DNA from: Escherichia coli
GTDB lineage: Bacteria; Pseudomonadota; Gammaproteobacteria; Enterobacterales; Enterobacteriaceae
Assembly: GCF_044324785.1 (NCBI RefSeq)
Contig: NZ_CP172127.1
Length of the DNA: 64,000 nt
Strand: one strand, 5' to 3'
Shown here: one piece after another, positions 23,649 to 27,061 of the stretch
Layout: each line of letters opens with the position of its first letter
Position numbering within the stretch: position 1 is the stretch's first letter
The notes under the pieces: model-generated
The model's input: the letters and a program-made list of their open reading frames with translations, nothing else
The model's database searches: none
Told to the model about the DNA's origin: nothing
Made by a program: the position numbers and the translations under genes

Positions 23649-23915
23649 ATTTGCTCCAAATATGAGGCAGGTTAAATTTCCGTGCACATTCTATGTAACA
23701 TGGTTAAGGAAAACGAGATCTGACACACACTATAATGACGTCCTGTGACAAGCTTCAAAAATAGTGAGCTGTCATACATTTCTGCTATGTTGTGTATGGA
23801 AGCTGAAAGTTATGTAAATGTGCTAACATTAAACATAACCATAACATTCAAGTCATCAATCTTTTCGTAGTCATAATCCTGGTCTATCAGAGAAATCACC
23901 ACAACCCATTTAAAT

Positions 23916-23934
23916 GAATTTGATAATCATTCTC
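23916..23934 (+). promoter_or_regulatory. Fur-box-like operator upstream of mntH
   Basis: gaatttGATAATCATTcTC, close to Fur consensus GATAATGATAATCATTATC. Confidence 0.5.
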
Positions 23935-23949
23935 GTTTGGCATAGCATG

Positions 23950-23971
23950 AAACATAGCAAAGGCTATGTTT
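23950..23971 (+). promoter_or_regulatory. MntR operator (inverted repeat) upstream of mntH
   Basis: Perfect inverted repeat AACATAGC-aaag-GCTATGTT 13 bp upstream of mntH ATG. Confidence 0.6.
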
Positions 23972-23974
23972 TAG

Positions 23975-25222
<1,248 letters not shown>

Positions 25223-25250: not shown

Positions 25251-25340
25251 GGCGGATGCGGCGTAAAACGCCTTATCCGCCCTACGCGTTAAAGAGACGG
25301 TTTGTAGGCCCGATAAGACGCACTAGCGTCGCATCAGGCC
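25251..25340. repeat. pair of REP elements (BIME-like) between mntH and ypeC
   Basis: ggcggatgcggcgtaaaacgccttatccgccctacg and gtaggcccgataagacgcactagcgtcgcatcaggcc. Confidence 0.7.
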
Positions 25341-25363
25341 TTGTGCTCCATTGGCAAATGTGT

Positions 25364-25690
25364 TTAATGGCGGTGTCCATGTCCGCGGCCTTTTCCGCGA
25401 TGATCGTCACGATCGCGCCAGCCTTCACGATAGCCACGCTCATACGCTTTACGCTTATCCCAGCCACGATGGTAGCCATTATCATGACGCCACCAGCGGT
25501 TTTTACGCCATTCATAATTGCGATGCCAGTAGTCACGGTCGCGCCAGTGACCACCGTCCCAGTAATTACCGTAATGATCGCGATCGCCAATTTGTAATTT
25601 GATTGATGGCAGTAGGGTGATTTCACCTGCGTTTGCCGCAAGCGGGGTAAATGCCATCAGGGCGGCCGCCAGAAACAGTGACCTGAACAT
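25364..25690 (-). CDS. ypeC: secreted Arg/Asp/Trp/His-rich small protein (DUF2502 type)
   Basis: 108 aa; signal peptide [21 protein letters not shown]; charged aromatic low-complexity tail ending [10 protein letters not shown]. Confidence 0.8.
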
Positions 25691-25804
25691 TGTTATTCTC
25701 CTTCACGATCGAAGCCGTCAGCGGCCTGTTAACGCAATATTACGGGGAGGTAAAGCCCCGTATCATCGCCATAACTCTTAAATCATAAAGGAGAGCATTT
25801 TTTG

Positions 25805-27061
25805 CTAAACGTTATCGTGGGGTGGCTGTTGCTTCGGACGATTGACCATCATCATCGGCTTACCTGCTAATAACAGCCATGCCGGAAGCATGACGATACA
25901 GAGCAGCGGTAGCAATGTGGTATTGGGTACAACGACTGCCGCCATAAAAAGACTTAACCAGCCATCGCGTGTTACCACCAGCACGATGCCGAGAATAGCG
26001 CAGGAAACGGTTATTGCCGCTGGAACGGCGGGAACGTGCTCATGCAGCATCAACCCTAATGCCACGCCGACAAACACTGCCGGGAAGATTCGCCCACCGC
26101 GAAAGCCACTGGCGGCAGCAACGACCAGGGCGGCAAGTTTAATTACCGCCAGCAAAAAGTAATCGCTGGTGCTGAAAGCCTGATTTGCCACCATCTGCTG
26201 CATCTCATCCAGCCCTTTAAACAGCGAAACTGGTCCACCAATAACCCCCAGAATACCGAGAATAAATCCGCCAATACCCAGCACGAGCACCGGATTTTTC
26301 ATTTGATGCATCATCGCGTGCAACCGTGGTAAGCACCATACGGCGACCATCCCTGCTGCGATGGCAATCGCCGCGACAATTGCACCGCTGAGAATATCGG
26401 TCATTTGCATCTGTCCGTAATGCGCAATGGGCAGTGAAAAATGAGGATGGAAAAATAATCCGGTAGTTAGTGCACCAGCTGCTGCCGCCATTAACGGCGC
26501 AAAGAGACGATCCCATAGCGGAACTTCACTACTGCCATTTAAGGTTTGCGAAAATATCAACGCCGCTGCAACAGGTGTGCCAAACAGCGCGCCGATGGTT
26601 CCGGCAGAGGATAAAATAGTCCACTCCATTCGGTTGACGCGCGGTAACAGACGAGCGCCAATGGCAACCGCAAGGGCGATATTGACGGTCATGATCGGAT
26701 GTTCTGGCCCCAGGCTGACGCCACCAGCAAGACCAAGAATTAATGCTACGATAAGTCCTGGTAGCGCAGAGGGCGGAACTGGTGCGCCGATCAGCGGTTC
26801 ACAGGCGGGGTCTGGTCCGGCATGACCCTGGCTGAAACGGATAACCAACCCCACTGCAATACCCGTTAGCGTTAATATACCGATGATCCAGAGAGGTGAA
26901 TCCTGGGCTATCCCCAGAGTTCCCGGCAGTCGTTGCCAGAGCAAATTCTGTAATACCGAGGCGATTTTCATCACCACAATCAGAATAAGACTGGACGCAA
27001 TCCCAATTGCCACGGCGGGGAGCGATAATAACAACATGGTTCTGGCTCGCGGATGGAGCAT
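25805..27061 (-). CDS. yfeO: ClC-like putative ion channel/transporter
   Basis: 418 aa polytopic membrane protein. Confidence 0.85.

What the first reader, a model, noticed from the sequence alone, without database searches (positions are those of the whole stretch)
25364..25690. ypeC: secreted small protein with an Arg/Asp/Trp/His-rich repetitive tail, adjacent to mntH
After a signal peptide, the mature ~87-aa protein is dominated by charged and aromatic residues in short repeats ([30 protein letters not shown]...[19 protein letters not shown]). The composition and C-terminal His-Gly repeats suggest a periplasmic metal- or polyanion-binding role. It is convergent with the Mn/Fe transporter gene mntH, separated by REP elements, which prompts the question of a metal-homeostasis link. 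Long antisense ORFs across it (25256-25597 +, 25282-25641 -) are artefacts of the repetitive codons.
Basis: inference. Interest (0 to 1): 0.3.

Follow-up and report, generated by a model that had tools for sequence, protein, structure and literature searches.

The report
ypeC: known envelope-stress periplasmic protein gene
This is the already annotated E. coli gene ypeC, which encodes a small exported protein of unknown biochemical function that published data tie to envelope and antibiotic stress (Rcs, MarA/SoxS), and nothing found here links it to its neighbour, the manganese transporter gene mntH.

Summary
The ORF at 25364-25690 (-) is real. Its product is 100% identical to E. coli K-12 YpeC (b2390), sole Pfam hit DUF2502, and it is present in 5424 of 5426 complete E. 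coli genomes. It shows purifying selection (dN/dS 0.11-0.23). The protein has a Sec-type signal peptide (…ANA|GE), a conserved ~50-residue Trp/Arg/Asp/Gly core that AlphaFold models with confidence, and a ~36-residue disordered tail. The tail is cationic and rich in His, Arg and Gly; its composition is conserved across the family but its sequence is not. No solved structure resembles the core. The "repeats" are weak: WRDRD occurs twice and there is no tandem DNA repeat. The long overlapping ORFs follow from codon composition. The two REP elements and the convergent arrangement with mntH are confirmed. The metal-homeostasis link is not supported. The MntR and Fur boxes lie upstream of mntH only. 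ypeC carries the exact marbox that published ChIP-seq assigns to MarA/SoxS, and published transcriptomes show strong Rcs dependence (42-60x up; 24x down when rcsB is disrupted). The adjacency to mntH is block synteny within Enterobacterales and is absent in a betaproteobacterial member. My best reading is an envelope-stress-induced periplasmic protein that binds envelope polyanions, with metal or pH tuning by the His tail; that biochemistry is inferred, not shown. This is a known gene of low to moderate interest.

The parts
25364..25690 (-). ypeC coding sequence (108 codons plus stop codon TAA at 25364-25366)
   Evidence: ORF list and translation. Pfam DUF2502 at E=3e-24. 100% identical to K-12 YpeC. 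dN/dS 0.11-0.23 against orthologs.
25628..25690 (-). Signal peptide, residues 1-21 ([21 protein letters not shown]), with predicted signal peptidase I cleavage after ANA
   Evidence: Hydrophobicity profile, the AXA motif and the absence of Cys. Ala at -1 is kept in at least 90% of 81 family members. This is a heuristic; no dedicated predictor was run.
25478..25627 (-). Conserved DUF2502 core, residues 22-71 ([33 protein letters not shown]…RWWRH)
   Evidence: Near-invariant across the family: P28 G35 D38 G41 Y43 W44 D45 G46 W49 R50 W55. 62% identical to the paralog YaaX over residues 2-66. AF2 block-mean pLDDT 79-90 over mature residues ~11-50, with short strands, one helix and a beta-hairpin.
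25367..25474 (-). Variable C-terminal tail, residues 73-108, predicted disordered, cationic and rich in His, Arg, Gly and Asp; ends GRGHGHRH
   Evidence: pLDDT below 50. Length and sequence vary between genera. Composition is conserved: median His 15%, R+K 23%, G 15%, net positive in 59 of 66 members.
25698..25703 (-). Shine-Dalgarno sequence AAGGAG, 7 nt before the ATG
   Evidence: Read from the sequence. Conserved in Klebsiella and Cronobacter orthologs.
25795..25809 (+). Marbox GCATTTTTTGCTAAA (MarA/SoxS/Rob site), backward relative to ypeC, 105 nt upstream of the ATG, overlapping the yfeO stop codon
   Evidence: Exact single match in the window. The same 15-mer is reported as the ChIP-seq MarA site at ypeC in ETEC (PMC5684230) and as the SoxS site in Salmonella (PMC10268841). 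Conserved in Klebsiella, Cronobacter, Shimwellia and L005.
25737..25742 (-). Candidate -10 hexamer TAATAT (inferred); it would put the transcription start near 25729-25730 and the marbox centre near -72
   Evidence: Identical in five aligned lineages. There is no good -35, which fits an activator-dependent promoter. The consensus promoter scan found nothing. This is inference only; no TSS data were seen.
25774..25780 (-). Conserved upstream block T[AC][AG]GAGT (TAAGAGT), about -50 to -44 from the candidate -10; function unknown
   Evidence: Phylogenetic footprint. It resembles one RcsB half-site (TNRGA), but the full RcsB box is not met.
25251..25285 (+). REP element 1 (GGCGGATGCGGCGTAAAACGCCTTATCCGCCCTAC)
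   Evidence: Inverted repeat. REP core pattern match. Stable hairpin. Sub-threshold hit to the Rfam family naRNA4, which I recall (own knowledge, not in the tool output) to be REP-derived.
25304..25340 (-). REP element 2, in the opposite orientation (GGCCTGATGCGACGCTAGTGCGTCTTATCGGGCCTAC); with REP 1 it forms a BIME-like pair in the 3' region shared by mntH and ypeC
   Evidence: The intergenic RNA folds with z=-3.9 on the ypeC strand.
23984..25222 (+). mntH (Nramp Mn2+/H+ symporter), the convergent neighbour; not part of the ypeC unit
   Evidence: ORF. Annotation in E. coli genomes. Its own MntR palindrome at 23950-23971 and Fur-like box at 23916-23934.
25805..27061 (-). yfeO (CLC-type channel/transport protein), the upstream co-directional neighbour in E. 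coli only
   Evidence: ORF. Annotation. In other genera the upstream neighbour is an aldo-keto reductase, an ipdC-type enzyme or glk.

Best explanation
The locus is the E. coli gene ypeC.

Shown here or in the cited literature:
- The gene is under purifying selection and encodes a 108-aa precursor.
- The precursor has a Sec/SPase-I type signal peptide, a conserved ~50-residue Trp/Arg/Asp/Gly-rich core (Pfam DUF2502, motif GDRDxxGxYWDGxxWRDxxWW) and a C-terminal tail.
- The tail varies in sequence but keeps its composition: His/Arg/Gly-rich and net positive.
- Upstream of ypeC lies a marbox that is bound by MarA/SoxS in published ChIP data.
- In published transcriptomes ypeC is among the most strongly Rcs-dependent genes, and its paralog yaaX is also Rcs-induced.
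- The transcript 3' region runs into a pair of REP hairpins shared with the convergent mntH.

Inferred: YpeC is an abundant, stress-induced, soluble periplasmic protein. Its small folded core presents aromatic and charged side chains. Its flexible cationic tail binds anionic envelope material, such as phospholipid or LPS phosphates, peptidoglycan carboxylates, anionic periplasmic glucans or capsule intermediates. This would help stabilise or shield the envelope when the outer membrane, lipoprotein traffic or the cell wall is perturbed. The nine His residues would make that binding depend on pH and/or divalent metals. The gene is not regulated together with mntH.
For: Identity.

Selection and coding frame.

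Export signal.

Core and tail architecture.

Marbox: an exact match at 25795-25809, identical to the ChIP-defined MarA site (PMC5684230) and SoxS site (PMC10268841), and conserved across genera.

Rcs dependence: 42-60x induction by a LolCDE inhibitor, alongside wca, bdm, ycfJ and spy (PMC5105897); -23.7x in an rcsB-disrupted O157 isolate (PMC5343319). The paralog yaaX is listed in the RcsB regulon and is induced by colicin M and by Lol inhibition.

Physical chemistry: the mature protein has pI about 10, net +7 without counting His, GRAVY -2.1 and 15% Gly.

No metal-regulator boxes at ypeC.
Against: - No binding, localisation or phenotype data exist for YpeC in what I could read, so the ligand is a guess from charge and composition.
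- The strict RcsB box TNRGAN4TCYNA is not found upstream of ypeC or yaaX at better than chance level. Rcs control may therefore be indirect.
- The promoter and transcription start are inferred only; the consensus scan found nothing.
- The conserved Trp/Arg residues may simply hold a tiny fold together rather than form a binding site.
- The structural model is only moderately confident overall (mean pLDDT 64).
- His-rich tails are also typical of metal-binding periplasmic proteins, so a primary metal role is not excluded.
Confidence: 0.5

Rival explanations
1. YpeC is a periplasmic metal-binding protein (a buffer, chaperone or sensor for Zn, Ni, Cu or Mn). It would bind metal through the His-rich tail and be functionally coupled to the adjacent Mn importer MntH.
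For: - A His-rich C-terminus is a conserved compositional feature: median 15% His in the tail, and at least 3 His in the last 15 residues in 39 of 66 members.
- ypeC stays tail-to-tail with Nramp in Klebsiella, Cronobacter, Shimwellia, Chimaeribacter and an unnamed lineage, and one gene away in Pantoea.
- The paralog yaaX is likewise convergent with yaaA (PF03883, peroxide stress response protein).
- yaaX changes together with zraP and the cus genes in cusS mutants (PMC10920338).
- One database source labels a Pantoea member 'zinc ABC transporter substrate-binding protein'. This is a label, not evidence.
Against: - There is no Fur or MntR box upstream of ypeC, while both are evident upstream of mntH.
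- The convergent orientation excludes co-transcription.
- The known regulators are Rcs and MarA/SoxS.
- nupC is conserved next to Nramp just as constantly, so the adjacency is block synteny.
- The Azonexus member lies next to clpB, not a metal gene.
- The His tract is short in E. coli (GHGHRH), and its sequence and length are not conserved.
- No homology to any known metal-binding family.
Confidence: 0.2
2. YpeC is a hydrophilin-like or chaperone-like periplasmic protectant. In this reading, a very hydrophilic, Gly-rich, largely disordered protein protects envelope proteins or membranes during osmotic, desiccation or folding stress without a specific ligand, in the manner of Spy or LEA-type proteins.
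For: - GRAVY -2.1 and 15% Gly in the mature protein meet the published hydrophilin criteria (my own knowledge: Gly above 6%, hydrophilicity index above 1).
- It is co-induced with spy, osmB, yjbJ, otsB and osmE under Lol inhibition.
- About 40% of the mature chain is predicted disordered.
Against: - The strongly conserved, apparently folded core with 11 near-invariant residues argues for a specific structure or interaction rather than bulk hydrophilicity.
- No experimental data.
Confidence: 0.15
3. The annotated frame is wrong or the gene is non-functional, and one of the long overlapping ORFs (25256-25597 +, 25282-25641 -, 25351-25602 +) is the real product.
For: These ORFs are 83-119 codons long. 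Some metagenomic gene calls of family members run into such frames, giving Ile/Thr/Met-rich tails.
Against: - Substitutions between genera fall mainly on codon position 3 of the ypeC frame, and dN/dS is 0.11-0.23.
- All 9 CDS differences from K-12 are synonymous in the ypeC frame.
- Codon-shuffled sequences give equally long open alternative frames.
- Only the ypeC frame has a Shine-Dalgarno sequence, a signal peptide and a Pfam match.
Confidence: 0.01

Closest known systems
E. coli K-12 YpeC (b2390), a member of Pfam DUF2502 (PF10697)
   Same: 100% identical protein, the same neighbours (yfeO, mntH) and the same upstream region apart from 1 nt. It is the same gene.
   Different: Nothing of substance. 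There are 9 synonymous differences in the CDS and a few differences in the REP region.
E. coli YaaX (b0005), the DUF2502 paralog
   Same: Signal peptide plus the same core, 62% identical over residues 2-66. Has a His/Pro/Gly-rich tail. Rcs-induced. Also convergent with a stress gene (yaaA).
   Different: The tail is Pro/His-rich and lacks the second YpeC block ([15 protein letters not shown]). It has a different locus (thrC-yaaX-yaaA) and no reported marbox.
Other small Rcs-induced envelope proteins (Ivy, Spy, OsmB, Bdm, YcfJ, YpfG)
   Same: The same expression class: strongly induced when lipoprotein traffic, the outer membrane or peptidoglycan is disturbed. All are small exported or envelope proteins.
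   Different: No sequence relationship. Where a function is known (Ivy inhibits lysozyme, Spy is a chaperone; my own knowledge), the folds and compositions are unrelated to YpeC.
His-rich periplasmic metal binders (ZraP, ZinT, the His-rich loop of ZnuA)
   Same: Periplasmic location and a flexible His-rich segment. yaaX co-varies with zraP in one data set.
   Different: No homology. The ypeC upstream region shows no metal-regulator site for Fur or MntR; Zur and ZraR were not tested. The His tract is short and embedded in Arg/Gly/Asp.
MarA/SoxS/Rob regulon promoters with an upstream marbox
   Same: A marbox with 2 mismatches to the 19-mer degenerate consensus and identical to the ChIP-defined site. 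It lies upstream of the core promoter in backward orientation, as in class I mar/sox promoters (my own knowledge).
   Different: The transcription start, and hence the spacing, is only inferred here. In Salmonella only SoxS gave a peak.

Membership tests
Pfam DUF2502 (PF10697) / YpeC orthologs | Match to the family HMM above the gathering score, covering the whole model | tested here: met
   85.4 bits against a cut-off of 27, profile positions 1-90 of 90. 80 of 81 aligned relatives match only this family.
Pfam DUF2502 (PF10697) / YpeC orthologs | N-terminal signal peptide followed by the core motif GDRDxxGxYWDGxxWRDxxWW | tested here: met
   All 11 near-invariant family positions are present in the window protein.
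Pfam DUF2502 (PF10697) / YpeC orthologs | Orthologous position (between the glk-side genes and mntH-nupC) and identity to K-12 YpeC | tested here: met
   100% identity. The same locus in 5424 of 5426 E. coli genomes and in other Enterobacterales.
Sec-exported soluble periplasmic protein (not a lipoprotein) | n/h/c-region signal peptide with A-x-A before the cleavage site, and no lipobox Cys | tested here: met
   MFR / [15 protein letters not shown] / ANA|GE; no Cys anywhere in the protein. Ala at -1 is conserved. The test is heuristic only; export itself cannot be tested with these tools.
MarA/SoxS/Rob regulon | A marbox upstream of the gene that is bound by the activators | tested here: met
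   The sequence is present exactly and is conserved. Binding comes from published ChIP-seq and was not tested here. The effect on transcription was not seen in what I read.
Rcs regulon (direct RcsB target) | RcsB box TN(G/A)GAN4TC(T/C)NA near the promoter (PMC7913699) | tested here: not met
   No site with at most 1 mismatch. Sites with 2 mismatches are no more frequent than chance (3.7 expected per 160 nt) and are not positionally conserved. Rcs dependence of expression comes from the literature, so control may be indirect or act through a degenerate site.
Fur / MntR (metal) regulons | A Fur box or the MntR palindrome in the promoter region | tested here: not met
   The best matches upstream of ypeC have 7 mismatches. 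mntH has an exact MntR palindrome and a Fur box with 4 mismatches.
REP / BIME elements | An imperfect palindrome of about 35 nt with the GATGCGRCG…CGYCTTATC core and a GCC…CTAC frame, lying outside genes, often in inverted pairs | tested here: met
   Two copies in opposite orientation in the 141-bp gap, and a third at 3558-3581; 0 expected by chance. Stable hairpins. The 38-nt consensus as I recalled it gave no hit at up to 3 mismatches because the loop lengths differ.
Tandem-repeat / repeat-built protein | Recurring sequence units beyond what composition explains | tested here: inconclusive
   Only WRDRD occurs twice. 4- and 5-mer repeats are reached by 2-9% of shuffles and 3-mers by 17-50%. 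No DNA tandem repeat. Short RGWD-type insertions in other genera hint at local duplication.
Hydrophilins | Gly above 6% and mean hydrophilicity above 1 (criteria from my own knowledge) | tested here: met
   Gly 14.9% and GRAVY -2.12 for the mature protein. This is a compositional class, not a homology family.
Known structural folds (PDB) | Significant structural similarity of the predicted core to a solved structure | tested here: not met

The most novel reading that the evidence does not exclude
DUF2502 may be a small Trp/Arg-rich fold with no solved counterpart that acts as an effector of the Rcs and Mar/Sox envelope responses. In this reading the cationic His-rich tail is a pH- or metal-gated clamp on anionic envelope polymers. 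The conserved tail-to-tail placement of both E. coli paralogs next to peroxide and metal-homeostasis genes (ypeC with mntH, yaaX with yaaA) would reflect real functional coupling during oxidative or envelope stress, not synteny inertia.
Probability: 0.1. Interest if true: 0.5.

Novelty: already known. Interest (0 to 1): 0.2.

Why it matters
ypeC is an annotated E. coli gene in a curated Pfam family of unknown function, so nothing here is new as an object. Its value is as an open question. It and its paralog yaaX are among the strongly induced, still unexplained members of the Rcs envelope-stress response, and ypeC is also a direct MarA/SoxS target, which ties it to antibiotic tolerance programmes. 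The family is small (115 clusters at 50% identity among 1.84 billion representatives) and has no structural relative among solved structures. The analysis moves the first experiment away from Mn/Fe regulation and toward envelope-stress phenotypes and polyanion or metal binding by the tail.

Tried and rejected
1. Metal-regulator sites. Fur, MntR, RcsB, RcsAB and marbox patterns were scanned upstream of ypeC. Only the marbox is present.

2. REP consensus. A 38-nt version from memory gave no hit at up to 3 mismatches. A core pattern with a variable loop found both REPs.

3. Tandem repeats. TRF found none. k-mer recurrence barely exceeds composition.

4. Very large proteins hit by the family profile (P0186, P0226, P0227, P0231). 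These are Ig-like repeat proteins with weak partial matches summed over repeats, and I rejected them as relatives.

5. Solved-structure relatives by sequence and by fold. None were found. The afdb50 library was not on the machine.

6. NCBIfam. No model matches.

7. Rfam. Only sub-threshold naRNA4 hits on the two REPs, and no known RNA element in the ypeC leader.

8. Consensus promoter and terminator scan. It found no sigma-70 promoter and only an unrelated terminator-like site inside yfeO.

9. Literature. A search for 'b2390' returned only unrelated papers apart from the core-perturbome paper already seen. A zincophore review matched only 'YpeCntM'. The cap on papers was reached before the H2O2 preprint that mentions yaaX could be read.

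10. Alternative-frame genes. Rejected on codon-position and dN/dS evidence.
Full report
**1. What is in the sequence**

The minus strand carries an ATG-started ORF at 25364..25690. A strong Shine-Dalgarno sequence, AAGGAG, lies 7 nt before the ATG.

The N-terminus looks like a standard Sec signal peptide:
- one basic residue in the n-region (MFR);
- a hydrophobic stretch;
- A-N-A immediately before Gly22;
- no cysteine anywhere, so no lipobox.

No dedicated signal-peptide predictor was available, so this is a heuristic call. It is backed by conservation of the Ala at -1 in at least 90% of 81 family members. The predicted mature protein has 87 aa, pI about 10, composition R16 G13 D10 H9 W8 Y7, GRAVY -2.1 and 15% Gly.

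**2. Identity**

- The only Pfam hit is DUF2502, at 85.4 bits against a gathering score of 27 and across the whole model. No NCBIfam model matches.
- A 751-bp stretch around the gene matches 5424 of 5426 complete E. coli genomes. There it is annotated 'ypeC: DUF2502 domain-containing protein YpeC', lying between yfeO and mntH.
- The protein is 100% identical to K-12 MG1655 YpeC (b2390). All nine CDS differences are synonymous, and the upstream region differs from K-12 by one base.
- This is a known, annotated gene of unknown function.

**3. Is it a real gene, and what about the overlapping ORFs?**

I compared the window with orthologs from Klebsiella (L002), Cronobacter (L003), Shimwellia (L004) and an unnamed lineage (L005). 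dN/dS is 0.11-0.23, and differences concentrate at codon position 3 (for example 15/16/51 at positions 1/2/3). The ypeC frame is therefore the selected one.

The long overlapping ORFs exist: 25256-25597 (+), 25282-25641 (-) and also 25351-25602 (+).

Shuffling the order of the ypeC codons gives mean stop-free runs of 71 and 83 codons in the frames that are on average most open. The cause is codon composition (CGY, TGG, CAT, GAY, GGY), not repetition. The same effect probably explains the metagenomic gene calls of family members that end in Ile/Thr/Met-rich frame-shifted tails.

**4. Repeats**

- TRF finds no tandem repeat in the DNA.
- In the protein only WRDRD recurs (residues 49 and 91), and DRD occurs three times.
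- Composition-preserving shuffles reach the observed 4- and 5-mer recurrence in 2-9% of trials, and the 3-mer recurrence in 17-50%.
- The protein is better described as compositionally biased than as repetitive. Short RGWD-type insertions in Kosakonia, Cronobacter and Franconibacter do suggest local duplication in the tail.

**5. Architecture from comparison**

Within Enterobacteriaceae, residues 22-71 are almost invariant, a second block ([15 protein letters not shown]) is well conserved, and the extreme C-terminus varies in length but is always His/Gly/Arg-rich.

An exhaustive profile search of 1.84 billion representative proteins found only 115 clusters at E of 1e-3 or better, and 47 at 1e-10. 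The family is small.

Distant members keep a signal peptide and the core motif φxφGDRDxxGxYWDGxxWRDxxWW. The near-invariant positions are P28 G35 D38 G41 Y43 W44 D45 G46 W49 R50 W55. After the core the sequences diverge completely, but the composition persists: median His 15%, Arg+Lys 23%, Gly 15%, Asp+Glu 13%, and net positive in 59 of 66 members. A few members carry the core twice or end in CPPGQAKKGxC.

The E. coli paralog YaaX shares the signal peptide and core (62% identity over residues 2-66) but not the tail.

Named members come from Enterobacteriaceae, Yersiniaceae (Chimaeribacter, Rouxiella), Erwiniaceae (Pantoea) and one betaproteobacterium (Azonexus).

**6. Structure**

I ran AlphaFold2 on an 81-sequence alignment. 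Block-mean pLDDT is 79-90 for mature residues ~11-50, which form short strands, one helix and a beta-hairpin. pLDDT is below 50 for residues 52-87, which correspond to residues 73-108 of the precursor. A shallower alignment gave the same picture.

No solved structure resembles the model:
- Foldseek's best E-value was 7.9.
- The profile search of PDB sequences gave a best E-value of 0.47.
- The AlphaFold-database library was not available.

Weak profile hits to very large proteins turned out to be Ig-like repeat proteins, and I rejected them as relatives.

**7. The intergenic region toward mntH**

mntH (23984..25222, +) is convergent with ypeC across 141 bp. That gap holds two REP sequences in opposite orientation, with cores at 25255-25277 (+) and 25312-25335 (-). 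A third copy lies at 3558-3581, and none is expected by chance. The REPs form stable hairpins on either strand. Their only Rfam matches are sub-threshold hits to naRNA4, which I recall to be a REP-derived family.

**8. Regulation, and why the Mn/Fe link is not supported**

Metal regulators: upstream of mntH there is an exact MntR palindrome (23950-23971) and a Fur-like box with 4 mismatches (23916-23934). Upstream of ypeC the best matches to either have 7 mismatches. Convergent genes cannot share a promoter.

MarA/SoxS: the 15-mer GCATTTTTTGCTAAA occurs once in the window, at 25795-25809, 105 nt upstream of the ypeC ATG and overlapping the yfeO stop codon.
- It is exactly the marbox reported under the MarA ChIP-seq peak at ypeC in ETEC, and ypeC is also listed there among SoxS ChIP-exo targets (PMC5684230).
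- It is exactly the site reported under the SoxS peak in Salmonella (PMC10268841).
- It is conserved in Klebsiella, Cronobacter, Shimwellia and L005, even though the gene upstream of ypeC differs between these lineages.

The same footprint shows three further conserved elements: a T[AC][AG]GAGT block, a fully conserved TAATAT (25737-25742, a candidate -10 with no good -35), and a conserved leader. These promoter assignments are my inference. The consensus scan found nothing, and I saw no TSS data.

Rcs: expression data from the literature place ypeC firmly in the Rcs envelope-stress response.
- It is induced 42-60 fold by a LolCDE inhibitor, alongside wca, bdm, ycfJ and spy (PMC5105897).
- It is down 23.7 fold in an O157 isolate with disrupted rcsB (PMC5343319).
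- The paralog yaaX is listed in the RcsB regulon and is induced by colicin M and by Lol inhibition.
- The published RcsB box TN(G/A)GAN4TC(T/C)NA (PMC7913699) is not found upstream of ypeC or yaaX at better than chance level. Direct control by RcsB therefore remains open.

**9. Synteny**

ypeC stays tail-to-tail with an Nramp gene in Klebsiella, Cronobacter, Shimwellia, L005, Chimaeribacter and L008, and is one gene away in Pantoea. The gene upstream of ypeC varies between yfeO, an aldo-keto reductase, an ipdC-type enzyme and glk.

This is worth noting, but nupC is just as constantly on the other side of Nramp in the same loci. The whole glk…ypeC-mntH-nupC block is conserved within Enterobacterales. 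In Azonexus the family member is convergent with clpB, with no metal gene nearby.

The yaaX-type paralog is convergent with yaaA (PF03883) both in E. coli and in a distant relative. Both paralogs therefore abut genes of the peroxide and metal world. I record this as an unexplained coincidence rather than as evidence.

**10. Most likely mechanism**

The points shown are export signals, a conserved folded core plus a disordered cationic His-rich tail, the marbox, and strong Rcs dependence from the literature.

From these I infer the following. YpeC is an abundant stress-induced periplasmic protein. Its cationic, aromatic-rich surface and tail bind anionic envelope material, such as phospholipid or LPS phosphates, peptidoglycan, anionic periplasmic glucans or capsule intermediates. 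This would stabilise or shield the envelope when the outer membrane, lipoprotein traffic or the wall is perturbed. His protonation or metal binding would tune the interaction. I give this composite reading about 0.5. The identity, export and regulation parts are far more secure than the ligand.

Rivals:
- A primary metal-binding role, about 0.2. It is supported only by the His-rich tail, the synteny and one co-variation of yaaX with zraP and cus.
- A hydrophilin-like or chaperone-like protectant, about 0.15.
- A mis-called frame, about 0.01.

**11. Verdict**

'Periplasmic polyanion or metal binder' remains a fair but untested guess. The proposed link to mntH and Mn/Fe homeostasis has no support in the sequence or in the literature I could read. 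The literature instead points to envelope and antibiotic stress. The gene is already known, and interest is low to moderate.

Noticed in passing
window 23914-24003 (+): A 29-codon ORF that overlaps the start of mntH. It is identical to the small protein YpeD (b4819) annotated in K-12, and it spans the Fur-like box and the MntR palindrome of the mntH leader.
   Followed up: partly
window 23916-23934 and 23950-23971: Upstream of mntH there is a Fur-like box (GAATTTGATAATCATTCTC, 4 mismatches to the 19-mer) and an exact MntR palindrome (AAACATAGCAAAGGCTATGTTT). These served as positive controls for the negative result at ypeC.
   Followed up: yes
L001 1235-1531 / 1684-2460 (MG1655 yaaX / yaaA); L010 5001-5300 / 5340-6113: The DUF2502 paralog yaaX is convergent with yaaA (peroxide stress, PF03883), just as ypeC is convergent with mntH. 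Both paralogs therefore lie tail-to-tail with genes of peroxide or metal homeostasis, and the yaaX arrangement is kept in a distant relative. This may be coincidence.
   Followed up: partly
window 25741-25762 (-): A hairpin (TACGGGG…CCCCGTA) lies between the yfeO stop codon and the ypeC start codon and overlaps the candidate ypeC promoter spacer. Its loop (CTTTAC) is conserved across genera while its stem is only partly conserved. It could be a yfeO terminator remnant or a regulatory site.
   Followed up: partly
window 3558-3581 (-): A third REP core (GATGCGACGCTTGCGCGTCTTATC) elsewhere in the window.
   Followed up: no
proteins P0141, P0145, P0148, P0153, P0163, P0177, P0181, P0191, P0215: Database representatives of the family that switch after the core into Ile/Thr/Met/Ala-rich sequence. 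These look like frame-shifted gene calls running into the open alternative frames. They inflate cluster counts for this family.
   Followed up: partly
proteins P0166, P0173, P0183, P0189, P0208, P0209, P0210, P0216; locus L012 5001-5324: A subgroup, including one from Azonexus (Betaproteobacteria), ends in a Cys-flanked CPPGQAKKGxC motif that is absent from the enterobacterial proteins. Other members (P0141, P0145, P0149, P0175) carry the YWDG core twice.
   Followed up: no
cluster of P0161: One UniRef entry names a Pantoea stewartii DUF2502 protein 'Zinc ABC transporter substrate-binding protein'. This is probably an annotation carried over from His-rich similarity, and no ZnuA-type domain is detected.
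   Followed up: no
L011 6274-7001 (MG1655) versus the window: In K-12 an IS186 copy follows nupC. I did not check whether the window has it. Most E. coli genomes match the ypeC region at 95-99% identity and only 43 at 99% or more, so the window is from an E. coli lineage that is not K-12.
   Followed up: no
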